A stretch of DNA of 64,000 nt from Acidobacteriota bacterium (GTDB lineage Bacteria; Acidobacteriota; UBA6911). The position numbers were made by a program, and so were the translations under genes. The notes beneath the pieces are model-generated. The model was not told the origin of the DNA. It saw only the letters and a program-made list of their open reading frames with translations, and made no database searches. The stretch is from contig JAFGTD010000152.1 in assembly GCA_016934295.1 (NCBI GenBank), positions 19,624 through 83,623 of the forward strand. The letters are read 5' to 3'. Of this stretch, positions 25,492 through 63,465 are shown in pieces (positions within the stretch are counted from its first letter, which is position 1; every line of letters begins with the position of its first letter).

Positions 25492-25752
25492 AGGTGCCCT
25501 CCAGGGGATCTTGCCTCAACATTCGACATAGCGCGACCGCTCTCGTTAGGACGATGCCTGCTCGATTAATAGGCAATCCCTATGCCATGTCGCGACCAAA
25601 AATTTTTAAAATATGTATTCCATTTATTTACAATAGGATAGACTTACCGCGCCGACATTATATTCTCCGGACCCTACTTTCATTTCCATCTAAGGAGTCA
25701 ATTTGTTGACATTCGTGCAATCGAAGCTTTGACGTACAATCAGTGAATAAAG

Positions 25753-25801
25753 CAGTGGGCAGTGGGCAGTGGGCAGTGGGCAGTGGGCAGTGGGCAGTGG
25801 G
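25753..25801. repeat. Perfect heptanucleotide microsatellite (CAGTGGG)x7
   Basis: Seven uninterrupted CAGTGGG units, read directly in the sequence. Intergenic, between the kinase and the divergent response regulator. Confidence 0.9.
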
Positions 25802-26045
25802 CGATCCCGATGCCGACTCCGATACCGACACCGGGGAGAAATTTGGACACCCATTATCTAGCAGTAAGCAGTGGGTAGTTGGCAATAAATCGTGTGCAGC
25901 AGGGGCGAACCTTGCATCCGAGGGCAAAATCGGTGTCGGGGTCGGTATCGCTATCGGGATCGAAAGTGGGTAATGTGCAGTGGGCGATCCCGATGCCGAT
26001 TCCGATCCCGACTCCGGTGGGGAGAAATTTGGACACCCATTATCT
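25802..26045. repeat. Two direct copies of a roughly 57-bp unit [CAGTGGG + (CGAYNC)x5 hexamer array + GGGGAGAAATTTGGACACCCATTATCT], with an inverted copy of the hexamer array between them
   Basis: Direct copies at 25802-25859 and 25978-26045. Inverted hexamer array at 25931-25962 (CGGTGTCGGGGTCGGTATCGCTATCGGGATCG). The whole block is bracketed by a 10-bp direct repeat, AGTGAATAAA, at 25742-25751 and 26082-26091. Confidence 0.8.
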
Positions 26046-26120
26046 TAATGTTGAAGATTGAGAACTCATCTCTGTTCAAAGAGTGAATAAAATTTTTTTT
26101 GCGCAGGCGGAATGATTTTG

Positions 26121-27698: not shown

Positions 27699-27984
27699 AG
27701 CCCGCATCTCACAGGGGTACCCGCTGCTTCGCTTCTAAAGCCGCTTTGTACAACAAGTCGCTGCAGTATAAAATGGCCCAAATTTTCAGCTGGAATCCCG
27801 GTGAAAATTTGGGCTGTTGGAAATGCGGGCCATGTATCGAAATAAGATTGTCCCTTTCCGGTCAATCTGCGAAAATCTCCTCTCCCGTATTTCTAACAGG
27901 GTTTGCCGCGGTTTTTTCATCCAGCGGGTACAACGGCCTTGCTTATGGCGCCGCCGTTTGATAATCGGTATAACCTTGTATAAA

Positions 27985-29403
27985 ATGCAGGCTATTTCAA
28001 GGAGGTGGAGATTGCCGACTAAAAAATTATGGGGGGGACGTTTTTCCTCCGAGGAAGATCCTTTCTTTTCCGACTTCAACCGGTCTCTCCCTTTCGACAG
28101 CGAGTTGCTCGAAGTGGACATCCTTGGCAGCCTCGCATATGCCCGCGCCTTGGAACGGGCCGGCGTATTCAACCGCCGCGAAAGATTATCGGTGGAAAAG
28201 GGACTGCGCGGTGTCTTGAAGGACCACCTGCGCAATCCCGGCTTTATTGAGGAAAGCCGGGCTGAAGACGTCCATACCTATGTAGAGCAGGCCCTGACCG
28301 GAAAAGTAGGCGCTCTTGCGCTTAAACTGCACACAGGGAGAAGTCGCAACGATCAGGTGGCGACCGACCTTCGGCTTTATCTTCTTCAAAAAGAATCCGG
28401 GATTGAAAAGAGGATACTGGCCCTGCTCCATACACTGGCCGATCTAGCGGATGAATATCTCGGGGTGATCCTGCCTGGATATACCCATCTTCAGAGAGCG
28501 CAACCCGTGCTTTTCTCCCATTACCTGTTGTCGTATGCGGAAATGCTGCTTCGGGATCTCGAGCGGCTTGGAGATGCAAAGAGCCGAACCGATGTCTGCC
28601 CGCTGGGGTCCGGGGCTCTTTCGGGGACGGTCTATAATATCGACCGTAAAGCGCTGGCCCACGATCTTGGATTTTCGACCGTTTCGGGCAATAGTATGGA
28701 TGCGGTTTCCGATCGCGATTTTGTTCTCGATTTTCTCTTTTTTGCATGCACCCTCCAGATACACCTGAGCCGTCTTTCGGAGGATTTTATCCTGTACAAC
28801 TCCGGAGAATTCTCTTTTTTACAGATGGATGACAGTGTGGCTTCGGGGAGCAGCCTGATGCCGCAGAAAAAAAATCCCGACGCCCTGGAACTGGTCCGCT
28901 CCAAAACCGGTCGAACGCTCGGCCATCTGGTCTCGCTCATGACGGTCCTGAAGGGCACACCCATGACCTATAACAAGGACCTCCAGGAAGACAAGGAGGG
29001 ATTATTCGACGCCATTAAAACAACGGAAGACTGCCTGCATATGGTTCAACTTGTTCTCGAAAGAGTGCACCTCAATCCACAACGGATGCAGGAGTCGGCA
29101 ACCCAGGGCTACCTGAATGCGACCGAACTCGCGGACTACCTTGTCGCAAAAAACATGCCTTTCCGTGAAGCGCACAGCCTGATAGGAAAAATTGTAGTCC
29201 GGGCTTCCGAATTGGGGCTTACGCTGGAAGAATTACCCATTCGGGAATACCAGAGCTTCTCTCCCCTCTTTGAGGAGGACCTGTATGGTTGCCTGGATCT
29301 GAAAAAAGCAGTCGCCCGCAGGAAAGAACTGGGCGGAACCTCCCCCGCAACCGTTAAAAAAGCGATAAGAACATTGAGAAGGAAGATACAGAAATACAGA
29401 TAG
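27985..29403 (+). CDS. argH: Argininosuccinate lyase
   Basis: LWGGRFS N-terminal motif and a fumarase/ASL fold throughout. The start is either the ATG at 27985 or the TTG at 28012, which has a perfect AAGGAGGTG Shine-Dalgarno sequence 6 nt upstream. The ORF track extends spuriously to 27817. Confidence 0.9.
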   Translation: MQAISRRWRLPTKKLWGGRFSSEEDPFFSDFNRSLPFDSELLEVDILGSLAYARALERAGVFNRRERLSVEKGLRGVLKDHLRNPGFIEESRAEDVHTYVEQALTGKVGALALKLHTGRSRNDQVATDLRLYLLQKESGIEKRILALLHTLADLADEYLGVILPGYTHLQRAQPVLFSHYLLSYAEMLLRDLERLGDAKSRTDVCPLGSGALSGTVYNIDRKALAHDLGFSTVSGNSMDAVSDRDFVLDFLFFACTLQIHLSRLSEDFILYNSGEFSFLQMDDSVASGSSLMPQKKNPDALELVRSKTGRTLGHLVSLMTVLKGTPMTYNKDLQEDKEGLFDAIKTTEDCLHMVQLVLERVHLNPQRMQESATQGYLNATELADYLVAKNMPFREAHSLIGKIVVRASELGLTLEELPIREYQSFSPLFEEDLYGCLDLKKAVARRKELGGTSPATVKKAIRTLRRKIQKYR

Positions 29404-29650
29404 ACACTTCATCGAACGTACTAACGTGCGAACGTACTAACGTGCGAACGTGGGATGACGGGATGGGCTTATTGATTGAACGAAATCGGCATGTCTTCAT
29501 ACCTGTAACTCTTTGGGAATGCGGAGCGAGTCTCGGTCACGGATGAATGGGGCGGGGCAGGTAGGAGCGTTTGAAAGTACTAACGTGCTAACGTTAAAAC
29601 CAACTACATTGTGTTCGGGTTTATGACGGATGAATGGCAAAGGAGATGAG
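29404..29650. repeat. Left repeat array of the argH-speA islet: two inverted copies of a composite unit (AACGT repeats at 8-bp phase plus a GGTGACGGATGAATGG-like submotif)
   Basis: 29411-29458 reads (CG)AACGTACTAACGTGCGAACGTACTAACGTGCGAACGTGGGATGACGG, the reverse complement of the right-side unit. Further copies lie at 29536-29562, 29576-29597 and 29622-29640. Confidence 0.7.
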
Positions 29651-29714
29651 TACCGCCAGCATATTTTATCTTTCCGGTAACTGAATTAATTTGCCTCCTT
29701 TCTTTCTATATAAT

Positions 29715-30314
29715 CTATTCATATTGTAGGTGTACGTTTTTAAAACCGTTTATTCTCAACATTTTAAAAAATTCTTCTGAGGGAGTGTCCCTAACTTGAA
29801 GTTGAAGAATTACGCATGAAACGCACTCAGTTTTAGAGCGGATCCAATTCTCTAATTGCGGATAGTTCATATTTCTGCCATCAACAATAAATGTATCAAT
29901 TCCCAAAACCCTTATTGGTGCAAGATGTTGCCCTCTGATTGGATTATTGCTAGCAAAATCAAACCAAACAGTAATGATTCCTGACATTTTATAAGTATTT
30001 TCATTATCTGTAAGCGGCAAAAACTTCCACGTATTGATGTAATTTACAGCGCTTTCATTTAAAAAAGAATGTCCTGCAATGATGTTTGTTTTCTCTACGA
30101 TACCGTTTTCGTTAATTACAACAGATAAGATTACTCGTCCTGGAATTTTTGGCTTCCCGATATCAGGATATTGAAGTTCACCTTTTTCAATCACACGATC
30201 AAGCAGAAATTCCTCAGTAACATATTCCGTATTGAACGCAAGTGTTGATGTAACAAATAACGAACAAAATGCAATGAATATCATGAAGGCTTTCATCCTC
30301 ATGCCTTTCCACAT
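29715..30314 (-). CDS. Hypothetical secreted protein (signal peptide; weak resemblance to a TonB C-terminal-like fold) in an AT-rich islet
   Basis: 199-aa ORF, about one-third GC by eye against roughly 50% in the flanks. N-terminus MKAFMIFIAFCSLFVTSTLA; the likely start is at 30296. The middle region (YPDIGKPKIPGRVILSVVINENGIVEKTNIIAGHSFLNESAVNYINTWKFLP) is reminiscent of TonB_C. Confidence 0.45.
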   Translation of the reverse strand: MWKGMRMKAFMIFIAFCSLFVTSTLAFNTEYVTEEFLLDRVIEKGELQYPDIGKPKIPGRVILSVVINENGIVEKTNIIAGHSFLNESAVNYINTWKFLPLTDNENTYKMSGIITVWFDFASNNPIRGQHLAPIRVLGIDTFIVDGRNMNYPQLENWIRSKTECVSCVILQLQVRDTPSEEFFKMLRINGFKNVHLQYE

Positions 30315-30371
30315 GAATGATTATAATATTCCTATACCCCCTATTCCGGGCAAGGGCAATTAAAAAGACAT

Positions 30372-30810
30372 AATGTTTTCGGCAATCATATGAAGAGCTG
30401 CATCATAGAGCGTTCTCACATTCATACGTTAGCTCACGAAAGAGTGATTTATTCCGTGATAGATACCCCGCCATTTATCCGTCACCGGATCTCACCCCAC
30501 CTTTCCAGGCAGCAACAACTACAACGACATATCGATTTCGGCAATCAGGGAACGAACTCCGTCATCCCACGTTCGCACGTTAGTACGTTCACACGTTAGC
30601 ACGTTCGCACGTTTTACGTTAAAAGTTAGAACGTTTGCCCCACTCATGAACCGGCCCTCCGCCATTCATCCATCACCGGACCTCACTCTTTATTCCCAGA
30701 TAGATACAATTATAAATATAAACCGATTTCGGCAATCAGGGAACGAACTCCGTCATCCCACGTTCGCACGTTAGTACGTTCACACGTTAGCACGTTAATC
30801 GTTAAAGATA
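30372..30810. repeat. Right repeat array of the islet: three direct, diverging copies of a roughly 100-190-bp unit containing ACGTT at exact 8-bp phasing
   Basis: Copies at about 30372-30500, 30527-30690 and 30722-30810. ATTTCGGCAATCAGGGAACGAACTCCGTCATCCCACGTTCGCACGTTAGTACGTTCACACGTTAGCACGTT is duplicated almost perfectly. ACGTT starts at 30569, 30577, 30585, 30593, 30601, 30609, 30616 and 30631. Confidence 0.75.
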
Positions 30811-30834
30811 TAAAAGTTCCAACGCTCGAGGGCT

Positions 30835-32751
30835 CTACTCTTCCAAATAGGTGTAGCTTCCTAAAGTAGTTTGGAAGGATTCGCAGTAAGAATCCAGTTC
30901 CTCTTTTGTAATCTTCGATTGATTTTCCGCGTTCCGGGCCATGGTGCGGAAGTTCTCGACCAGATTCTGCTCGCTGTAGCCGGCGGATTCCAGAACCTGT
31001 CCCAGCGTTTCTCCGCGGACTATTTTGTCGATATGAGGTTTGCCGGAATCGTCAATGAGAAAATGGGCCTCGTTTGCAGAGCCCAGAAGGTTGTGGTTCA
31101 TGCCGAGCGATTCCTGATAGGCTCCGATCAGGAAAATCGCCAGAAAATAGGGTTCGTCGTTGACGCCGTGAAGCTCCAGTGCCTGCTTAACATCCCGCAG
31201 GTCGACGAATTTATCGATCTGCCCGTCGGAATCGCAGGTAATATCGCAAAGGGTCGCCCGTTCCGTAGGCTCTTCCGTAAGGCGTGTAATCGGTATGATC
31301 GGGAAAAGCTGGTCTAATGCCCAGCTGTCCGGAGTGGACTGAAATACTGAAAAATTGCAGATATATTTACTGGCCAGGATGTTCTCCAGATCGATGAACT
31401 CCTCGGGGCGTTCTTTCATGGAACGTGAAAATTTAATGGCTTTTCTGCAAATCTGCCAGAACAGCCACTCGCCCTGGGCTCGGTTTTGCAGGTTCAGATA
31501 TCCCAGATTGAAAAGGGATTGAAGCTCTTCGCGATTCTGGAGAGCATCATGGTAGTATTCACGAAAATTCTTTGGATTAATTTCCTTGTAAAGGTCCGTC
31601 ATCTCCTCGACGACTTCGGAATCAACCTTTGAAGGATTGATCATTGTGCCGCCCAGACCGGGATTCAGGGTTCGTATTACATTGGTAATAAAAAGCGCGT
31701 GATGGGCGGCTACCGCGCGCCCGCTTTCAGTCACAATCGTCGGTGGCGGCACATTTTCCGATTCGCAGATCTCGTTTATAGTATAGACAATATCATTGGC
31801 AAATTCCTGCATACTGTAGTTTACGCTACAGTCCGAAGCCGTCCGGCTGCCGTCGTAATCCACACCGAGTCCGCCCCCTACATTAAGGAATCCTATCGGG
31901 AATCCCATTTTATATACTTTTGCATACACCCGGGCCGCTTCTTTTATCGCATTCTTGATTCTTCTTATATCGGTAATCTGGGAGCCGATGTGAAAGTGAA
32001 GCATCCTGAGCCGGCGGGCCAGGCCCTCATCCGAAAGCAGTTTGAGGCAATCCAGGAGCTGAATGGTGTTTATTCCGAATTTGGAGGTTTCTCCGCCCGA
32101 TTCTTCCCATTTTCCGGCCCCGCGCGAAAACACCCGTACACGCACGCCCAGGTCGGGACTCACACCCAGCGCAGAGGATACCTCGGTTATCTTCTTGAGG
32201 TCGTTTACTTCCTCAATAATTAAGATTGGATTTTTGCCGATTTTTGAAGCCTGAATCGCCCATTCCAGGTATTTACGGTCTTTGACTCCATTGCAGATTA
32301 ATAGAGCTTTCGAGTGAAGGGACATTGTCAGTGCTGCGGCCAGTTCGGCCTTTGTACCCACTTCCACACCGTATTCGTATCGATGCCCCGCGGCCATCAG
32401 GCGTTCCACGACACTGCGCTTCTGGTTCACCTTCATCGGGAAAACAGCCCGATGCTGGGCGGTGTAATTATACTCCGCTATGGAATTGCGAAAGGCTTCG
32501 TGCAGCTCCTTAATCTGGGTGTCGAGAATCTGGGGAAAGCGCAGCAGGTATGGAGGCGGAACTTTGCGCTGCAGGAGAGCCTGAACCAGGGAAACAATTT
32601 CAACTCCCATCAAGGGATTTTTGGTTGGATGAACCGTTAAACAACCCTGCTCACTGACATCGAAATAACCGCCGCCCCAATTGTCCACGCCATAAATACG
32701 GTTTGGAATTTCGCTTGGAGAAAGTCGGAGGCTTTGGGTAAATTCTTTCAT
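30835..32751 (-). CDS. speA: Biosynthetic arginine decarboxylase
   Basis: The SpeA family is recognisable over the full length. The probable start is the ATG at 32751 (MKEFTQ...), which has a GGAGGGTG Shine-Dalgarno sequence. The ORF track extends to 32793. Confidence 0.9.
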   Translation of the reverse strand: MKEFTQSLRLSPSEIPNRIYGVDNWGGGYFDVSEQGCLTVHPTKNPLMGVEIVSLVQALLQRKVPPPYLLRFPQILDTQIKELHEAFRNSIAEYNYTAQHRAVFPMKVNQKRSVVERLMAAGHRYEYGVEVGTKAELAAALTMSLHSKALLICNGVKDRKYLEWAIQASKIGKNPILIIEEVNDLKKITEVSSALGVSPDLGVRVRVFSRGAGKWEESGGETSKFGINTIQLLDCLKLLSDEGLARRLRMLHFHIGSQITDIRRIKNAIKEAARVYAKVYKMGFPIGFLNVGGGLGVDYDGSRTASDCSVNYSMQEFANDIVYTINEICESENVPPPTIVTESGRAVAAHHALFITNVIRTLNPGLGGTMINPSKVDSEVVEEMTDLYKEINPKNFREYYHDALQNREELQSLFNLGYLNLQNRAQGEWLFWQICRKAIKFSRSMKERPEEFIDLENILASKYICNFSVFQSTPDSWALDQLFPIIPITRLTEEPTERATLCDITCDSDGQIDKFVDLRDVKQALELHGVNDEPYFLAIFLIGAYQESLGMNHNLLGSANEAHFLIDDSGKPHIDKIVRGETLGQVLESAGYSEQNLVENFRTMARNAENQSKITKEELDSYCESFQTTLGSYTYLEE

Positions 32752-35998: not shown

Positions 35999-37159
35999 CT
36001 AGCTTTCCTGACCGGTCGTCGAAGTTTTCCCCGGATCTTCCGACTTAGCGTCCTTCACTTCGGTCGGCTCTTCCTTTTCTTCTTCTGACTTTACGTCCTT
36101 TGCAGGATCGGCCGGTGCAGATTCCGCCGGTGCAGGATCGGCTGGTGCAGATTCCACCGGTGCAGGATCGGCCGGTGCAGATTCCGCCGGGGTTGCCGCG
36201 ACCTCGGTCTTTTTGGTTTTAGCTTTGCGCTGCAGTGTTTTTCGCATGGTAGTTTTTGGCTTAGCAGCGGATTCCGCGGCGCCCGCATTTTCGTCTGCAG
36301 AGGAACCCTGACCATCGGGAACAGTGGCTGCATCCGTTTGATCGGTTGCCGGCGCTTTCGTATCTGCAGCCGCGGCGGCCGCTTTTTCAGCAGCTTCTCG
36401 AGCGGCGGCAGCCTGCTTTGCCTGGATCTGGCGCTGTTTTTCCATTTGTTCCGCCAGTTCCTTTTGCTGTGCTTCGTATACGGCCTTGCCGTCCAGATAT
36501 GCCTGGGCGATTGTATCCGTAATCAGCCGGATAGCCCGCAGGGCATCATCGTTGCCCGGAATGATATAGTCGATTTCATCCGGATCGCAGTTGGTGTCGG
36601 CCACGCCGACTACCGGAATTCCCAGCTTGACCGCCTCTTTAATCGCGATGGTTTCAAGTTTAGTATCAATCACGAAAAGCGCGTCCGGCAATCCGGTCAT
36701 ATCCTTGATGCCGGAGAGGTTTTTCTCGAGCTTTTTTCTTTCCCGCTCGTAACGCGCCACCTCTTTTTTGGAAAAAAGATCGTATTGCCCGTTACTACGC
36801 ATGGTCTCCAGTTCGCGGAACCGTTTAATGCTTTTCTGTATCGTAACGAAATTGGTGAGAAGTCCTCCCAACCACCTCTGATTTACGTAGTAGGTCGATG
36901 TCTTTTGCGCAGCTTCCTGAATGGCTTCCTGCGCCTGCCGCTTCGTACCTAAAAACAGGATGGTTTTCCCCTGGCTTCCCAGATCGTACATGAATTGAAT
37001 TGCGCTCTTGAACAGCCTGATGCTTTTCTGCAAATCAATAATGTATATGCCGTTTCTCTGCCCGAAGATATATTCTTTCATCTTCGGATTCCAGCGTTTT
37101 GTCTGGTGGCCGAAGTGGACTCCTGCCTCCAGCAATTGCTTCATGGTTATCGAAACCAA
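35999..37159 (-). CDS. rpsB: 30S ribosomal protein S2 with a roughly 135-aa low-complexity C-terminal extension
   Basis: TTG start at 37159 with a GAGGAGGT Shine-Dalgarno sequence. The N-terminus (V)[25 protein letters not shown] matches S2. The C-terminal tail is rich in A/E/K/P and contains [10 protein letters not shown] repeats. Confidence 0.9.
36101..36190. repeat. 3x 30-bp perfect or near-perfect tandem repeat inside the rpsB 3' extension
   Basis: TGCAGGATCGGCCGGTGCAGATTCCGCCGG repeated three times, with two substitutions. It encodes the ([10 protein letters not shown])3 segment. Confidence 0.8.
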
Positions 37160-41411: not shown

Positions 41412-43916
41412 ATGGCGGGTATGAAAATTCGACTCACTGGAAAGAACATTTTCGGATCTAATCAAACGGGGAATACAAAGTACTGTATTCTTCTTTTCAT
41501 TCTAGCGTTTTCCGTTCCGTTGTTTACCGCGGCAAAGGAAGTGTCGGAGGATAAGAAACCTCCCTCCGTTGGATCCCTTAAGGACATTTCGGCTTCACAG
41601 GAGGATGGTAAATTGACGGTAACCATGAAAACGGACCGGTTGATGAAGCCGCAAGCATTCAGGCTGGAGAATCCCTCCCGTCTGGTTGTCGACTTTCAGA
41701 ATACCGTTAATAAAGTTACTTTCATGAAATTGCCGTTAAATGCGCCGTCCGCCAAGCAACTGCGCGTCAGTCAGTTTCAGAGATCTAATCCCCAAATAGC
41801 GCGGGTAGTGTTCGATCTGGAAAAGGATTTTGGAACTCACAACATAACTCAAGACAATACTTCGGTTCAGGTAACGCTCTATCCTGCAAAGCCTGGAACG
41901 AACAAAACCGCTTCCGGCATTGAAAAGAAAGCTGAAAGCCCGGCCGTTACACCGGCCAGCGCTGCCAAAACCACCGAACCGGTCAAGACAGCCGATTCTT
42001 CGGAAAAACCGGAGGCTGCCGGGGTGGATTCCTCTTCCCTGAAGAAAGCTGAAAGCCCGGCCGTTACACCGGTCGGCGCTGCCAAAACCATCGAACCGGT
42101 CAAGACAGCCGTTTCTTCGGAAAAACCGGAGGCTGCCAGGGTGGATTCCTCTTCCCTGAAGAAAGCTGAGAGCCCGGCCGTTACACCGGTCAGCGCTGCC
42201 AAAACCATCGAACCGGTCAAAGCAGCCTCTTCCTCGCAACAATCGGAGATCCCCAAGGTTGCTTTTTCCTCCCTGAAGAAGGCTGAAAGCCCGGACGTTA
42301 CATCGGCCCGTGCTGCCGAAAGCATCGAACCGGTCGAAGCAGCCGTTTCCTCGCAACAATCGGAGATCCCCAAGGTTGCTTTCTCTTCCCGGATGAAAGC
42401 TGAAAGTCCGGCCGTTTCGCCTGTTCCTGCCAATATCGATTCTTCAAAAGAAACCGAATTGAAAAAAAGCGGGCTCAAAATGTCGGACGAAAAAGCCAAA
42501 GAAATTCCGGCTTTGATAGCATCACTGTCTCCAATGTCGCCGCTCAACCAGTCTGCTCCACCTCCAGCACCGCCTGCGGTATCTCAATCATCCCAAATTT
42601 CAAGGTTCTCCGGACAGCTGCTGACTCTGGATTTTGTCGAGCTTCCACTGGTCGACTTTTTCCGGGTTATGTCTGAAGAAGCCGGCATCAATATCGTTCT
42701 CGATCCCAAGGTAAAAGGAGATATCTCCATCAAAGTAGAAAAGCTACCGTGGGATCAGATTTTTGACATGGTTCTGGTCAATTATTCCCTGGATAAGCAG
42801 ATTGAAGGCAACCTGATTCGCATTGCGCACAAATCGACATTACAGGAGGAGGCTAAACAGCAAGAAGCTCTCAAGAAAGCCAAACTGCTTGCCGCAGACC
42901 TGGAAACGCGGGTCAAGCGATTGAATTATGCGAAAGCAGAAGACCTCATGTCATCCCTGGAGGACTTGAAAACGGTTCGCGGTAATGTTGTGCACGATGA
43001 ACGAACGAACTCGCTGGTTATGACCGATATACCGAGTGAGCTGGATAAAATGATGCAATTGATAACCACTCTGGATATACCGCAACCGCAGGTGGAGATC
43101 GAAGCCCGCATCGTTTCCGCCGCACGGGATTTCGCCCGTGAAATCGGCATACAATTCGGTTTTGTCCAGGGTAATCTCGAACGCGTCACCGTCGGCGGGC
43201 CGAATACTTTCGGCACTATCGGCGGCACGAGGCCAAGCGCAACGCCGAACTCAACCTATATCGCCGGGAATCCTGCGACAGGTAGGGGCGCTGCCGAAGA
43301 TGAAGTCGGCGATATCGGATCCGTCAGCACGGGTGGTGCGGGTAATTACAATGTGAATCTGCCCGCAACGAAAGCTTTCGGCGGGCTGGGCATCTCCGTC
43401 GGGAATATCTTCGACACCTTCCTGCTTGACGCGGCGCTTACAGCCGGAGAAACCAAGGGCCTTGCCAAGCTCATTTCGCAACCGAAGGTTACGGCCCAGA
43501 ACAACAGCCCCGCCGTCATTACCCAGGGAACCCGTTTCCCCGTGTTGGTAAATTCAAATAATACGATCACGGTACAGTTTTTCAATGCCGCATTAACGCT
43601 GACGGTAACGCCGCAAATTACCTATGAAGGCAATATCGTTCTTGATTTGAAAGTCGAGAACAACACGGCGGATTGGGGACGGAATGTCGGCGGTGTCCCG
43701 TCCATAAGAATCAGTGAATCCGCAAGCCGGGTATTGGTCAGCGATGGAGGAACAACTGTTATCGGCGGCATCCTCATCGACGATGAATCCAACTCGGGAG
43801 ATAAGGTACCCGGTCTGGGCGACCTGCCTCTTGTCGGAAATCTTTTCCGCCGGTCGTCTGTTTCTCGGTCCACCCAGGAAGTCCTGTTCTTTGTTACACC
43901 CCGAATCGTCAACTAG
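41412..43916 (+). CDS. pilQ: Type IV pilus secretin PilQ with an AMIN domain and an internal tandem-repeat linker
   Basis: Signal peptide, AMIN-like domain (LTVTMKTDRLMKPQAFRLENPSRLVVDF), repeat linker, secretin N domains and the secretin C domain (VPGLGDLPLVGNLFRRSS...VLFFVTPRIV). Confidence 0.9.
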   Translation: MAGMKIRLTGKNIFGSNQTGNTKYCILLFILAFSVPLFTAAKEVSEDKKPPSVGSLKDISASQEDGKLTVTMKTDRLMKPQAFRLENPSRLVVDFQNTVNKVTFMKLPLNAPSAKQLRVSQFQRSNPQIARVVFDLEKDFGTHNITQDNTSVQVTLYPAKPGTNKTASGIEKKAESPAVTPASAAKTTEPVKTADSSEKPEAAGVDSSSLKKAESPAVTPVGAAKTIEPVKTAVSSEKPEAARVDSSSLKKAESPAVTPVSAAKTIEPVKAASSSQQSEIPKVAFSSLKKAESPDVTSARAAESIEPVEAAVSSQQSEIPKVAFSSRMKAESPAVSPVPANIDSSKETELKKSGLKMSDEKAKEIPALIASLSPMSPLNQSAPPPAPPAVSQSSQISRFSGQLLTLDFVELPLVDFFRVMSEEAGINIVLDPKVKGDISIKVEKLPWDQIFDMVLVNYSLDKQIEGNLIRIAHKSTLQEEAKQQEALKKAKLLAADLETRVKRLNYAKAEDLMSSLEDLKTVRGNVVHDERTNSLVMTDIPSELDKMMQLITTLDIPQPQVEIEARIVSAARDFAREIGIQFGFVQGNLERVTVGGPNTFGTIGGTRPSATPNSTYIAGNPATGRGAAEDEVGDIGSVSTGGAGNYNVNLPATKAFGGLGISVGNIFDTFLLDAALTAGETKGLAKLISQPKVTAQNNSPAVITQGTRFPVLVNSNNTITVQFFNAALTLTVTPQITYEGNIVLDLKVENNTADWGRNVGGVPSIRISESASRVLVSDGGTTVIGGILIDDESNSGDKVPGLGDLPLVGNLFRRSSVSRSTQEVLFFVTPRIVN
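41925..42440. repeat. 117-bp (39-aa) tandem repeat, about 4.4 copies, inside pilQ
   Basis: Copies start at 41925, 42042, 42159, 42276 and 42393. They encode KKAESPAVTPxSAAKTxEPVKxAxSSxKPEAAxVDSSSL. Confidence 0.85.
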
Positions 43917-61779: not shown

Positions 61780-62406
61780 TCAGTTTTCTCTTTCTCTGAT
61801 ATGTATTTCCTGGATCAGAAGATCCCTGTATATGGATTCAACCTGCAAATTGGTCTGTTTCAAGGTTCCCGATGTATCAATTGTGTAATCCGCTAATTTA
61901 AGCTTTTCTTCCATAGGCATCTGGGATTCTATCCGTGCTTTCGCCTCTTCGAATGCCAGATCATCCCGGTCCATAAGCCTGGAAACCTGCAACGCGGGAT
62001 CACAGGACACGACTACCAACCGGTGATAATTATTATAAGAGCCGGCCTCAACCATCAACGCCGCCTCTACAACAATAATTCCTCCGGCCGATATTTTTTC
62101 CAGTGAGAAGATTTTCCTGAGAATCTCCGCACCGACCGCCGGATGTGTCAACCTGTTCAGCAGCAGCCTTTTCTCCGGATCACAAAAGACTATTTTCCCT
62201 AAAATTTTCCGGTCAATGGAACCATCGCTGCACAGGATTTCATCCCCGAACGCTCCAACGACTTTCTTTTGTGTTTTTGTTCCGCGGGCAAGCAGTCCGT
62301 GCACAATCCGATCCGCGTCGATGACATGGGCGCCCAATTCGGCAAACTTCATCGATGCATAGCTTTTACCCGTTGCGATATTCCCGGTCAGACCTACGTG
62401 CAGCAT
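61780..62406 (-). CDS. coaE: Dephospho-CoA kinase
   Basis: N-terminus MLHVGLTGNIATGKS, which includes the P-loop. 208 aa. Confidence 0.85.
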   Translation of the reverse strand: MLHVGLTGNIATGKSYASMKFAELGAHVIDADRIVHGLLARGTKTQKKVVGAFGDEILCSDGSIDRKILGKIVFCDPEKRLLLNRLTHPAVGAEILRKIFSLEKISAGGIIVVEAALMVEAGSYNNYHRLVVVSCDPALQVSRLMDRDDLAFEEAKARIESQMPMEEKLKLADYTIDTSGTLKQTNLQVESIYRDLLIQEIHIREREN

Positions 62407-62487
62407 GGCTGGATAATCCCGATTAAAAGCAGGAGTTGGAAGAAACGTTTTAACGTTGAACGTTTGAACGTTATTCTTCCGGCTTGG

Positions 62488-63465
62488 CTACTGACTACTA
62501 TTCGGCGGTATATCGGCAACGACAATACTATTGGAAAGTTCGTTCACAACGTAAACGGTACGGTTGTCCGGGCCGACGATAATGTTTGTGGGACCTTTAT
62601 CTACTTTAAATGTTTTAGCTTCGAGACTGCTGAGATCCGCCGGAAGGACTGAAACGTTCCGCGAAGCGCTGTTAACGACGAAAACACGGTTTCCGTCAGG
62701 ACTTACAGCCACGCCAAACGGCATTTTCCCGACAGGTATCGTTACAATCGGCCTCATCATTTGGGCGTCGACAACCGACAAATTGTTCGATCGGCTGTTT
62801 GCAACAAAAACCTTTTTACCGTTCGGAGTAATGGCAATTCCATCCGGAGCTTCTCCAACGGCGATTTTTTCAACCACGACCAGCCGTTCCGGATCCACGA
62901 TCCAGACTTCATTATCTCCGCCCATGATGACGTATACCATTTCCGTGATCGGAGAAACCGCGGCCGTGAACGGTGCAGCCCCCATTTTCATCGTCGCCGT
63001 GACTTTTCTATCGCGAATATCCACGATATGCAGCCGGCCTTCCCGACTTCGGCCGTAATCCGTAACATAGGCCCTGTACCCTCGCGGACTGACCGTAACG
63101 GAATTCGGGTATCCTCCGACATTGATGTCGTCGACGACGTGTGAATTTTCCAAATCCACAATGGTTACAACACCCGTATCTTTACAGGCCACCAAGGCGA
63201 TTTTGCCCTCTTCGGCCAGAGCAAAACCGAGCGGAGACGCTCCAACTTTTATAATCTGGTCCACAACCCCTTCCGAAAGATCGATGCCGATCAATTCATC
63301 GGTTCCGAAAGAGGTCGCGTACATTCTTCCCCCATCAGGACTCAGCGCAATAAAGTTTGGTGATTTTCCAACTTTTTTAATTCTATAGGTCTGTTTTGTC
63401 TGACTGAAAACCGGCGCTAAAAAAACAAGAAAAAGAAGGACCGGAATTCCTCTACGTCCCAACAT
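62488..63465 (-). CDS. Secreted YVTN-family beta-propeller repeat protein
   Basis: Signal peptide. Repeated roughly 40-aa units with (Y/F)V(T/V)(N/D) motifs (YVTDYG, VFVANSRSNNLSVVD, VFVVNSASRNVSVL, VYVVNELSNSIVVAD). Confidence 0.7.
   Translation of the reverse strand: MLGRRGIPVLLFLVFLAPVFSQTKQTYRIKKVGKSPNFIALSPDGGRMYATSFGTDELIGIDLSEGVVDQIIKVGASPLGFALAEEGKIALVACKDTGVVTIVDLENSHVVDDINVGGYPNSVTVSPRGYRAYVTDYGRSREGRLHIVDIRDRKVTATMKMGAAPFTAAVSPITEMVYVIMGGDNEVWIVDPERLVVVEKIAVGEAPDGIAITPNGKKVFVANSRSNNLSVVDAQMMRPIVTIPVGKMPFGVAVSPDGNRVFVVNSASRNVSVLPADLSSLEAKTFKVDKGPTNIIVGPDNRTVYVVNELSNSIVVADIPPNSSQ

What the first reader, a model, noticed from the sequence alone, without database searches (positions are those of the whole stretch)
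29404..30834. AT-rich 1.4-kb islet at the convergent argH/speA junction, flanked by inverted arrays of a novel repeat with ACGTT at exact 8-bp phasing
Seen in sequence. A segment between the argH stop (29403) and the speA stop (30835) is visibly AT-rich, about one-third GC against roughly 50% in the flanks. It carries one 199-aa secreted-protein ORF and no recognisable transposase or integrase. It is bounded by copies of a composite repeat unit, three direct copies on the right (30372-30810) and two reverse-complement copies on the left (29404-29650). Each unit contains 5-8 iterations of NACGTTNN with exact 8-bp periodicity (ACGTT starts at 30569, 30577, 30585, 30593, 30601, 30609, …), plus a GGTGACGGATGAATGG-like submotif in both orientations. 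The overall layout is inverted repeat arrays bracketing a foreign-composition cargo gene, inserted at a convergent terminator region. That resembles a cassette or MITE-like mobile unit, or iteron-like protein-binding arrays. It is not an obvious IS, integron attC or REP element. The 8-bp phasing (about 0.76 helical turn) would place successive sites on different DNA faces, as in some iteron or filament-forming binding arrays.
Basis: seen in the sequence. Interest (0 to 1): 0.65.

Follow-up and report, generated by a model that had tools for sequence, protein, structure and literature searches.

The report
Variable gene cassette flanked by octamer-array repeats
Between two converging housekeeping genes of an uncultured Acidobacteriota bacterium sits a strain-specific, foreign-looking gene for a small secreted TonB-type protein; it is bracketed by inverted copies of an undescribed repeat built from a phased 8-base motif, a modestly interesting accessory-gene hotspot and not a recognisable transposon.

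Summary
argH ends at 29403 and speA at 30835. The 1,431 bp between them hold one low-GC gene, ORF199 (TonB_C domain; GC3 0.32 against about 0.57 in neighbours), and five copies of a 165-190-bp composite repeat. Two copies lie on the left and three on the right, all facing inward. The outer module of each is an array of the octamer K-AACGT-R-Y at exact 8-bp phase.

Related genomes show that the segment is derived and variable. Relatives with 85-88% identical SpeA have a plain junction of 92-439 bp without arrays. Relatives at 89-91% have only 27-36 bp, made of 2-3 octamers. Relatives at 93-94% carry the repeat next to speA but with other cargo, such as a cupin gene.

I found the full repeat nowhere else. 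There is no transposase, integrase, convincing target duplication, RNA structure or Rfam match.

Phased ACGT arrays as such are not unique, because tandem 8-mers of any motif are common. Inverted pairs of such arrays with the same polarity recur in other phyla.

Best reading: this is a cassette hotspot like a "minimal mobile element", and the arrays are probably protein-binding sites. A cassette moved in trans, like a MITE or MIC, is not excluded. The function of the arrays is inferred, not shown.

The parts
27817..29403 (+). argH (argininosuccinate lyase), the conserved left flank. The listed ORF starts at a TTG; the true start is probably near 27985-28020, because relatives are 459-462 aa.
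   Evidence: Pfam Lyase_1 3.5e-72 and ASL_C2 2.8e-25. Synteny in relatives.
29411..29558 (+). Composite repeat unit L1, a full copy in array-to-tail orientation pointing inward. It holds five octamers (29414-29453), GGGATGACGG, a head (..TTGATTGAACGAAATCGG), a spacer and a tail (GGTCACGGATGAATGGGG).
   Evidence: nhmmer E=1.5e-39, alignment, phased ACGTT. A 32-nt stretch is identical to R2 and R3.
29561..29650 (+). Unit L2, a short derivative. It has a degenerate array (GAAAGTAC TAACGTGC TAACGTTA) joined directly to the tail motif (TGACGGATGAATGGC) and lacks the head and spacer.
   Evidence: (D1, D10, I15). The same block follows the ORF in L122.
29715..30314 (-). Cargo gene ORF199. It encodes a small secreted TonB_C-domain protein; NCBI annotates 193 aa starting at 30296. 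It has low GC and looks horizontally acquired.
   Evidence: Pfam TonB_C 4.1e-9. It is 100% identical to MBN2319553.1, 'TonB family protein [Acidobacteria bacterium]'. GC3 is 0.315 against about 0.57. dN/dS is 0.27 against the 84% homologue.
30336..30454 (-). Unit R1, a degenerate copy immediately upstream of ORF199. Its array has decayed to AGCGTTCTCACATTCATACGTTAGC, and its tail motif lies at 30471-30483.
   Evidence: nhmmer E=3.3e-9 and (D3, D5). It is conserved next to the ORF in L122.
30460..30642 (-). Unit R2, a full copy. Its array is 30569-30613 (six exact 8-bp units), followed by three further units at 7- or 8-bp steps up to 30635.
   Evidence: nhmmer E=9.9e-45. It is a 191-bp direct repeat with R3 at 86% identity (D2), with a 73-nt identical head-plus-array stretch.
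30650..30814 (-). Unit R3, the full outermost copy on the speA side. Its array is 30760-30796 (five units). Bases 30797-30834 are decayed octamers and spacer running to the speA stop.
   Evidence: nhmmer E=1.1e-43. The homologous unit sits next to speA in L123 and L133-135.
30835..32751 (-). speA (biosynthetic arginine decarboxylase), the conserved right flank. It is 638 aa in relatives; the listed ORF extends to 32793.
   Evidence: Pfam. Homologues at 75-94% identity, 638 aa long.

Best explanation
The 1.43-kb segment is a derived, strain-variable accessory cassette. It sits in an insertion-tolerant hotspot between the convergent 3' ends of argH and speA in one lineage of uncultured Acidobacteriota.

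**Anatomy.** The cargo is a horizontally acquired, selectively maintained gene for a small secreted TonB_C-domain protein. It is bracketed by inward-facing tandem copies, two on the left and three on the right, of a lineage-specific composite repeat of 165-190 bp. The outer module of the repeat is a phased array of the octamer K-AACGT-R-Y. Together the copies form inverted repeats of about 150 nt around the gene.

**Shown**
- The anatomy described above.
- The foreign composition of the cargo and purifying selection on it.
- The presence/absence and cargo polymorphism among relatives, and the derived state of the segment.
- The absence of mobility genes.

**Inferred**
1. Cargo is gained and swapped by recombination, through the conserved flanks and/or between repeat units, as in Neisseria "minimal mobile elements". 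It is not moved by a self-encoded transposase.
2. The units multiplied by local duplication and are kept uniform by gene conversion or selection. A head-plus-array stretch of 73 nt is identical in two copies and 32 nt are identical in three copies, inside units that are otherwise 65-85% alike.
3. The octamer arrays act on DNA as cooperative binding sites for an unidentified sequence-specific protein that uses an 8-bp register. Ribbon-helix-helix proteins such as MetJ and ParG work this way. The arrays would mark or insulate the cassette boundaries next to the two stop codons.
For: **The junction is variable and the segment is derived**
- Relatives ordered by SpeA identity to the window:
  - 85-86% (L428-437): 92-115 bp, with a long-hairpin terminator in L428 and no arrays.
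  - 87-88% (L125, L138): 106 and 439 bp, no arrays.
  - 89% (L137): 36 bp with 2-3 octamers.
  - 91% (L124): 27 bp, consisting of three octamers that align with the argH-side array of the window.
  - 93-94% (L123, L133-135): a full unit next to speA, followed by different sequence.
  - 93% (L136): a degenerate array plus a cupin gene.
  - Sources.
- The housekeeping synteny is conserved and holds no recombinase (rpsB-tsf-pyrH-frr-efp-speA / argH-sigma54 regulator).

**The cargo is foreign but functional**
- GC3 is 0.315 against 0.56-0.59 in neighbours.
- dN/dS is 0.27 against the 84% homologue, which has the same flanking R1-like and L2-like blocks.

**Repeat anatomy**
- Searches give the unit structure and copies.
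- The octamer has high information content. Of 45 octamers selected for an ACGT core, position 2 is A in 42, position 7 is G or A in 43, and position 1 is never C.

**Against an RNA or hairpin element**
- Folding z-scores run from -1.0 to +2.0 on both strands.
- No Rfam family matches.

**Independent assemblies reproduce the structure**
- L001 is 100% identical over 29432-30562.
- L122, L123 and L133-135 reproduce parts of it.

**Precedents from the literature**
- MME definition: PMC3082526.
- 8-bp register of MetJ and ParG sites: PMC3228920, PMC3130281.
- Paired inverted octanucleotide arrays of unknown function in Geobacter metallireducens: PMC2700814.
Against: - No direct evidence exists for the recombination route.
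- For the relatives with other cargo (L123, L133-136) the contigs end before argH. That the different cargos lie between the same two genes is shown for the speA side only.
- No candidate binding protein was identified, and the 8-bp register alone does not prove protein binding.
- I could not search the rest of the source genome. "Unit found only here" rests on the 64-kb window, about 140 kb of relatives' contigs, one JGI metagenome pattern scan that evidently does not hold the relevant samples, and one protein-word search.
- The inverted terminal arrangement with arrays outermost is also what a cassette mobilised in trans would look like.
Confidence: 0.5

Rival explanations
1. The segment is a non-autonomous transposable cassette, a mobile insertion cassette or large MITE. 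Its terminal inverted repeats are the octamer arrays plus head. It is mobilised in trans by an unidentified transposase that binds the repeated octamers as multiple subterminal sites.
For: - Arms of 64-66 nt are 84-85% complementary, with the arrays outermost, starting about 10 nt from the argH stop and ending about 38 nt from the speA stop.
- A passenger gene of foreign composition is present, and no transposase lies inside.
- Relatives show presence/absence polymorphism.
- Short inverted pairs of arrays with the same polarity, 20-146 bp apart, occur in other genomes. These include another Acidobacteriota MAG (L002, L057), and they look like miniature versions. There were 21 pairs of this polarity against 7 of the opposite one.
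- Short-read contigs break inside the arrays (L001, L122, L123).
Against: - There is no convincing target-site duplication. The only candidate is a 5-bp AGATA match at 29398-29402 and 30806-30810, which is within chance and overlaps the argH stop codon.
- The empty sites L124 and L137 retain 2-3 octamers instead of being clean.
- The unit next to speA persists while the cargo changes.
- There are several tandem inward-facing units, not one pair of ends.
- The full unit was not seen at any second locus.
- Contig breaks are explained equally well by the local direct and inverted repeats.
Confidence: 0.22
2. The repeats act as RNA. speA and ORF199 are on the same strand, so read-through would give one transcript. 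In it the G-rich upstream units and the C-rich downstream units pair into a long duplex that encloses the ORF199 message, giving a target for processing or stabilisation of the RNase III type. The C-rich, unstructured 3' part could also serve as a Rho loading site that stops transcription before it runs antisense into argH.
For: - speA and ORF199 are co-oriented.
- The predicted duplex between R3 or R2 and L1 on the minus-strand RNA is -193 to -195 kcal/mol, against -74 +/- 6 for shuffled partners.
- The RNA downstream of ORF199 has a C/G ratio of 1.39, and the unit folds no better than shuffled sequence (z up to +2).
- GC skew is +0.2 on the left and -0.3 on the right.
- Correia elements in Neisseria are a precedent for transcribed inverted-repeat elements bound or cleaved by RNase III (PMC2649163, abstract).
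Against: - Any inverted DNA repeat gives such a duplex energy, so this is not independent evidence.
- No transcript data are available.
- The mini-arrays of 27-36 bp at the empty sites have no partner arm.
- Conservation is concentrated in a 6-of-8 motif with strict phase. That is typical of protein recognition, not of base pairing.
Confidence: 0.12
3. The whole segment is an old, vertically inherited intergenic region with terminator or insulator arrays. The short junctions in relatives are secondary deletions, so nothing was inserted.
For: - Remnant octamers at the junctions of L124 and L137 could be deletion scars.
- The unit is confined to this locus.
Against: - The more distant relatives (85-88% SpeA identity, more than 20 contigs) have array-free junctions, one with an ordinary hairpin terminator. 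The array-bearing state is therefore nested and derived.
- The cargo GC3 of 0.315 is far from the genome's.
- Cargo differs between close relatives.
Confidence: 0.08
4. The structure is an assembly artefact, a chimeric join of a low-GC fragment into the metagenome-assembled genome (MAG) contig at repeats.
For: - The source is a short-read MAG.
- The repeats are the kind of sequence at which assemblers misjoin.
- The argH-to-L1 join is seen only in the window itself.
Against: - An independent Logan assembly reproduces 29432-30562 exactly.
- A second sample has the homologous ORF with the same flanking units.
- The speA-to-unit join is reproduced in L123 and L133-135.
- The first 27 nt after the argH stop align with the L124 junction.
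Confidence: 0.03

Closest known systems
Minimal mobile elements (MMEs) of Neisseria
   Same: Two conserved genes with different whole-gene cassettes, or none, between them in different strains. The cargo has low GC and there are no mobility genes in the cassette (definition in PMC3082526).
   Different: - Incorporation by homologous recombination after transformation is unproven here.
- The far flank is unseen for the alternative cargos.
- MMEs are not defined by bracketing inverted composite repeats.
Mobile insertion cassettes (MICs) and MITEs (PMC3129680)
   Same: Inverted terminal repeats bracket a passenger gene and there is no transposase, so mobilisation in trans is conceivable.
   Different: - No target-site duplication and no second copy were found.
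- No cognate IS is known.
- The ends are tandem arrays of an octamer, not simple inverted repeats.
- Several units are stacked at each end.
- Empty sites keep part of the array.
Paired octanucleotide-repeat sites of Geobacter metallireducens (class 1 'global regulator binding sites', PMC2700814)
   Same: Pairs of sites on opposite strands, each made of about four tandem octanucleotide repeats, separated by a variable distance, lying in intergenic regions, with unknown function.
   Different: - The octamer is different (GTTGCTYN against KAACGTRY).
- G. metallireducens has 24 pairs per genome, whereas only one locus is seen here.
- No cargo gene is described between the Geobacter pairs.
Ribbon-helix-helix operator and centromere arrays (MetJ metboxes; ParG OF/parH)
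   Same: Tandem sites at an 8-bp register. One MetJ dimer binds each 8-bp box and at least two adjacent boxes are required (PMC3228920). [quoted passage not shown] The metbox AGACGTCT also has an ACGT core (established knowledge).
   Different: - No cognate protein or regulated promoter is identified.
- The arrays sit at 3' ends of convergent genes, not at promoters.
- MetJ is confined to Gammaproteobacteria.
Modular intergenic repeats (BIME/REP in enterobacteria, BOX in pneumococcus, Correia elements in Neisseria)
   Same: Composite, modular, non-coding repeats in intergenic 3' regions, with variable module copy number and possible effects on transcripts.
   Different: - Those families are high-copy and form stable hairpins.
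- This unit is not structured (z about 0) and is single-locus as far as could be seen.
Integron gene cassettes
   Same: Small promoterless-looking cargo genes separated by repeated non-coding elements, with cargo that varies between strains.
   Different: - There is no attC-like folded site.
- No integrase lies within about 8 kb on either side.
- The repeats are in inverted orientation around the gene.

Membership tests
MITE / mobile insertion cassette | Terminal inverted repeats | tested here: met
   Arms 29413-29478 against 30542-30607 and 30733-30796 are 64-66 nt long and 84-85% complementary.
MITE / mobile insertion cassette | Target-site duplication flanking the ends | tested here: not met
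   No direct repeat abuts the arms. The only match is a 5-bp AGATA at unequal distance from the arms, which is within chance.
MITE / mobile insertion cassette | Multiple dispersed copies, or a cognate transposase-bearing element with the same ends | tested here: inconclusive
   No second locus was found in the window, in about 140 kb of relatives' contigs, in one metagenome pattern scan or in a protein-word search. The rest of the source genome could not be searched.
MITE / mobile insertion cassette | Clean empty site in a related genome | tested here: not met
   L124 and L137 lack the islet but keep 2-3 octamers that are homologous to one arm.
Minimal mobile element (MME) | Site bounded by two conserved genes | tested here: met
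   argH and speA are convergent neighbours in all relatives whose contigs are long enough.
Minimal mobile element (MME) | Different whole-gene cassettes in different strains | tested here: inconclusive
   The window and L122 carry the TonB_C gene, L136 a cupin gene, L133-135 other AT-rich sequence, and L124, L125, L137, L428 and L435 nothing. The alternative-cargo contigs end before argH.
Minimal mobile element (MME) | Incorporation by homologous recombination of the flanks | not testable with these tools
   This needs population-scale flank phylogenies or experiments.
Integron cassette | attC site with a folded bottom strand, and a nearby integrase with attI | tested here: not met
   Units show no significant fold. 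The neighbourhood of about 8 kb on either side is housekeeping genes only.
REP / BIME / REPIN | Short imperfect palindromes forming stable hairpins, present in many copies | tested here: not met
   Folding z-scores are -1.0 to +2.0, and only one locus was found.
Ribbon-helix-helix operator array | At least two tandem short sites at a 7-9-bp register | tested here: met
   There are 5-6 exact 8-bp units per array. The octamer consensus is KAACGTRY.
Ribbon-helix-helix operator array | A cognate RHH protein and a regulated promoter or partition function | not tested
   No candidate protein was sought beyond the islet. The arrays lie at 3' ends of convergent genes.
Plasmid or phage iterons | Adjacent rep gene or origin | tested here: not met
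   The only gene inside is a TonB_C protein, and the flanks are argH and speA.
Any Rfam RNA family | Match at the gathering threshold | tested here: not met
   There were 0 matches in the window and in 17 array-bearing loci. Only sub-threshold chance hits appeared in 29000-31200.

The most novel reading that the evidence does not exclude
Inverted pairs of phased ACGT-core octamer arrays, here KAACGTRY, would be the recognition ends of a so far undescribed system. That system would be either a transposase or recombinase that reads tandem octamers, or a ribbon-helix-helix-like boundary protein. It would delimit and move or insulate small accessory-gene cassettes. The window would show a cargo-carrying member, and the miniature pairs with 20-146-bp inner spacing seen in Acidobacteriota, Planctomycetota, Patescibacteria, Bacteroidota and phage contigs, together with the Geobacter metallireducens paired octanucleotide sites, would be its cargo-less relatives.
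Probability: 0.15. Interest if true: 0.7.

Novelty: new variant of a known kind. Interest (0 to 1): 0.42.

Why it matters
- **If the best reading is right**, this is a clean example in an uncultured phylum of how convergent gene junctions serve as landing pads for small accessory genes without any mobility gene. It also adds an undescribed composite repeat to the catalogue of intergenic elements.
- **The more interesting point** is the phased, high-information octamer array in inverted pairs. This architecture was also noted, and left unexplained, in Geobacter metallireducens. Identifying the factor that reads it would explain a recurrent but unannotated class of intergenic sequence, whether that factor is a DNA-binding protein, a recombinase or an RNA-processing enzyme.
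- **The cargo itself**, a small secreted TonB_C protein, is ordinary.

Tried and rejected
1. **Known RNA family.** Rfam was run at E<=10 on the region and at gathering threshold on the window and on 17 array loci. Nothing was found.
2. **Structured RNA or hairpin element.** RNAalifold and single folds on both strands gave z about 0.
3. **tRNA or tmRNA attachment site.** None was found in the window.
4. **Dispersed copies of the unit.**
   - The metagenome scan with AACGANNNCCRTCAYCYCACGTT gave 7 hits, all chance matches inside coding sequence. The scan did not even recover L123's own JGI sample, so that collection lacks the relevant data.
   - The nhmmer profile found only the junction copies.
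   - A protein-word search with the translated array plus head found nothing.
Controls in viral contigs show the random null is wrong: ACGTT at 8 bp gave 53 loci, at 7 bp 39, at 9 bp 109, ATCGT at 8 bp 41 and AGCTT at 8 bp 50. What does stand out in the genome set is the share of arrays with variable spacers around a fixed AACGTT core, 79% against 34-57% in the viral sets.
6. **Arrays as operators upstream of genes.** Their contexts are mixed: 47 tandem, 20 convergent and 15 divergent.
7. **CsrA-type GGA sponge.** The GGA motifs in the unit are not conserved between copies (read from the alignment).
8. **Sigma-70 or sigma-54 promoter in the unit.** Only R3 and L123 have a TTGCC(G/C)-N15/16-TATAAT match. 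It is not conserved in the other copies.
9. **Source contig look-up.** The NCBI protein was not on record in the contig index.
Full report
**1. What is there**

- argH (Lyase_1/ASL_C2) ends at 29403 on the plus strand. speA ends at 30835 on the minus strand.
- The 1,431 bp between them contain one credible gene, ORF199 (29715-30314, minus strand).
  - It matches Pfam TonB_C (E=4e-9) and starts with a Sec-type signal sequence.
  - It is identical to NCBI protein MBN2319553.1, 'TonB family protein [Acidobacteria bacterium]', from a MAG contig of 92.9 kb. The window therefore comes from an uncultured Acidobacteriota genome.
- The low GC is real but confined to the core.
  - GC is 0.35 for 29651-30371, 0.41 for the whole segment and 0.46-0.49 for the repeats, against 0.49 for the window.
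  - ORF199 has GC3 0.315, against 0.56-0.59 in four neighbouring genes.

**2. The repeats**

- ACGTT recurs at exact 8-bp phase at 29415-29451 (minus strand, 5 units), 30569-30613 (6 units) and 30760-30796 (5 units). A weaker run lies at 29574-29594. Shuffles of the window give none.
- These arrays are the outer module of a composite unit of 165-190 bp. Read from the flanking gene inward, the unit consists of:
  - (K-AACGT-R-Y) repeated 5-6 times,
  - GGGATGACGG,
  - a head (AGTTCGTTCCCTGATTGCCGAAATCGG),
  - a variable spacer,
  - a tail (..TGGGAAT.AAG.GTGAGGTCCGGTGAYGGATGAATGGCGGAG).
- A profile of six copies finds three full units in the window: L1 29411-29558, R2 30460-30622 and R3 30652-30813. 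It also finds a degenerate R1 (30336-30435). A short L2 (29561-29650) has only an array and a tail.
- All units point inward, so the two sides form inverted repeats of 64-82 nt at 72-85% complementarity.
- R2 and R3 share a perfectly identical head-plus-array stretch of 73 nt inside units that are otherwise about 65-85% alike. L1 shares 32 identical nt with both. This points to gene conversion or constraint on that part.
- I collected 45 octamers with an ACGT core from this lineage and from a second Acidobacteriota MAG. Position 2 is A in 42, position 7 is G or A in 43, position 1 is never C, and position 8 is mostly C or T.

**3. What it is not**

- No tRNA or tmRNA gene is present.
- No Rfam family matches.
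- No recombinase gene lies in the islet or in the housekeeping neighbourhood (rpsB-tsf-pyrH-frr-efp-speA / argH-sigma54 regulator).
- The unit does not fold better than shuffled sequence on either strand (z from -1.0 to +2.0), and RNAalifold finds only trivial helices. It is therefore not a hairpin element of the REP, BIME or attC type.
- No direct repeat abuts the ends. A 5-bp AGATA match at 29398-29402 and 30806-30810 is within chance expectation.

**4. Related genomes**

SpeA homologues at 75-94% identity are plentiful. I read the junction in 12 look-ups. The table orders relatives by SpeA identity to the window.

| SpeA identity | Loci | Junction |
|---|---|---|
| 85% | L428-434 (13 contigs carry this SpeA) | 92 bp with a long-hairpin bidirectional terminator, no arrays |
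| 86% | L435-437 | 115 bp, no arrays |
| 87% | L125 | 106 bp, no arrays |
| 88% | L138 | 439 bp; the same ends as L125 plus its own insert of about 330 bp |
| 89% | L137 | 36 bp containing GAACGTAT AAACGTTT, which is part of the 16-nt palindrome GTATAAACGTTTATAC |
| 91% | L124 (GCA_016933615.1) | 27 bp, entirely CACGTTAG TACGTCAA CACGTGAAG; aligns with the first 27 nt after the argH stop in the window |
| 93% | L133-135 | a full unit next to speA, then unrelated AT-rich sequence |
| 93% | L136 | a degenerate array, a cupin gene, then tail-like motifs |
| 94% | L123 | a full unit, then sequence resembling the start of L136's cassette |

- The array-bearing state is thus nested within array-free relatives and is derived.
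- The arrays predate the present cargo.
- The cargo differs among the closest relatives while the speA-side unit persists.
- A second sample (L122) carries an 84%-identical ORF with the same R1-like and L2-like blocks on either side. Over this pair dN/dS is 0.27, with the TonB_C half nearly invariant. The gene is therefore real and maintained.
- Independent assemblies reproduce the structure. L001 is identical over 29432-30562.

**5. Is the unit dispersed?**

- Within the 64-kb window and about 140 kb of relatives' contigs, phased ACGT arrays of three or more units and the full repeat unit occur only at this junction.
- A metagenome scan with a head-specific pattern returned only seven chance hits in coding sequence. 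A protein-word search with the translated unit found nothing.
They give no support for a high-copy element.

**6. How special are 8-bp ACGT arrays?**

The hits come from many phyla, above all Chloroflexota (Anaerolineae, Chloroflexia) and some Acidobacteriota, often with several loci per MAG.
- The random expectation of about 1 is misleading. In viral contigs the counts were:

| Pattern | Loci |
|---|---|
| ACGTT at 8 bp | 53 |
| ACGTT at 7 bp | 39 |
| ACGTT at 9 bp | 109 |
| ATCGT at 8 bp | 41 |
| AGCTT at 8 bp | 50 |

  Phased arrays of any 5-mer are therefore common as ordinary tandem repeats.
- What distinguishes the genome set is core conservation with variable spacers.
  - In 79% of loci the spacers differ between units, against 34-57% in the viral sets.
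  - The third spacer base is nearly always A, giving a palindromic AACGTT core.
  - The window's octamer (AACGTR, directional) is a different flavour.
- The arrays are almost all intergenic, in tandem, convergent and divergent contexts alike. None matches Rfam.

**7. Paired inverted arrays**

- Directional arrays tend to come in inverted pairs with one polarity: (AACGTNNN)n, then an inner segment, then (NNNACGTT)n. This is the polarity of the window's two sides. There were 21 such pairs against 7 of the opposite polarity, and the close pairs are 20-146 bp apart.
- Examples are two loci of another Acidobacteriota MAG (L002, L057) with the same GAACGTGY octamer, and loci from Planctomycetota, Patescibacteria and Prevotellaceae. 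A phage-like contig has such a pair in almost every intergenic gap.
- The inner segment is often a GC hairpin flanked by A and T tracts, which is a bidirectional intrinsic terminator.
- Published analogues are the 24 pairs of sites in Geobacter metallireducens. [quoted passage not shown]

**8. Mechanism**

- What is shown is evolutionary. This is a derived, variable accessory cassette at a convergent junction, without mobility genes. [quoted passage not shown] The recombination route is inferred here.
- For the arrays I favour a role as DNA-level protein-binding sites, for three reasons.
  - The motif is strict in six of eight positions.
  - The phase is exact.
  - There is no fold.
- An 8-bp register is what ribbon-helix-helix proteins use. 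One MetJ dimer binds each 8-bp metbox and at least two adjacent boxes are needed (PMC3228920). ParG ACTC boxes are separated by 4 bp, occur in direct and inverted orientation, and each bind one dimer (PMC3130281). This is a resemblance, not a test.
- The main rival is a cassette mobilised in trans, whose ends are read as tandem subterminal sites.
- An RNA-level reading also cannot be excluded.
  - It would involve speA-ORF199 read-through, a duplex of about 150 bp between the upstream and downstream units, and a C-rich unstructured 3' region that loads Rho.
  - The predicted duplex energy is -193 kcal/mol against -74 for shuffled partners, and the C/G ratio downstream of ORF199 is 1.39.

**9. 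Verdict**

The islet is inserted and variable, but MITE-type mobility is not shown.
- This is a new variant of a known kind. Interest is moderate.

Noticed in passing
window 62440-62475: GGAAGAA-ACGTTTTAACGTTGAACGTTTGAACGTT-ATTCTTCC: four AACGTT hexamers at 7-8-bp spacing enclosed by a 7-bp inverted repeat. It lies in the 81-bp gap between two minus-strand ORFs (61780-62406 and 62488-63465). It is a palindromic-core array of the kind that is widespread in other phyla, and the only other ACGTT array in the window.
   Followed up: partly
window 25740-26050: A second composite repeat of the type 'short tandem array plus unique module' lies in the divergent region upstream of the sigma54 response-regulator gene. 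A perfect (GCAGTGG)x7.3 at 25752-25802 is joined to a module of about 65 bp (GCGATCCCGATGCCGAYTCCGAT.CCGAC..GGGGAGAAATTTGGACACCCATTATCT). The module recurs at 25977-26047 and is partly inverted at 25934-25963.
   Followed up: no
L160 4565-4703, 8364-8454, 9733-9834, 10222-10343; L190 2229-2344 (IMGVR_UViG_3300037264_008483): In a GC-rich phage-like contig, almost every gap in a string of minus-strand genes holds (AAACGTCR)n, a GC hairpin and (YGACGTTT)n. These are inverted octamer arrays flanking what looks like a bidirectional terminator. The genes have no Pfam match except a weak Laminin_G_3 hit.
   Followed up: partly
L002 5945-6058 and L057 2775-2985 (Acidobacteriota MAG Spart_072): Inverted pairs of the same GAACGTGY octamer array as in the window, 53 and 146 bp apart. 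In L002 the pair encloses a canonical terminator, AAAAAACGCGGTTC-ATTCAGC-GAACCGCGTTTTTT.
   Followed up: partly
L003-L121 (genome scan hits), e.g. L009, L017, L024, L100: NN-AACGTT arrays with a variable dinucleotide are multi-copy in several Chloroflexota and Sulfomarinibacteraceae MAGs. They fill short intergenic gaps, often directly next to a Shine-Dalgarno sequence or a stop codon. Some, such as L017, are perfect long palindromes.
   Followed up: partly
L138 5136-5585; L428 5415-5515: The argH/speA junction is variable even in array-free relatives. L138 has its own insert of about 330 bp relative to L125. The 85% relatives carry a long perfect hairpin, TTGCACAGATTTCATA...TATGAAATCTGTGCAA.
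   Followed up: no
window 29715-30296 against L122 327-908: In the TonB_C cargo protein, residues 1-113 are almost invariant between two strains (4 changes). The C-terminal 80 residues, which have no Pfam match, have diverged strongly.
   Followed up: no
window 41925-42416 and 36101-36190: A 117-bp x4.2 tandem repeat lies inside the long ORF 41412-43916, and a 30-bp x3 repeat lies inside ORF 35999-37159. These are probably coding repeats.
   Followed up: no
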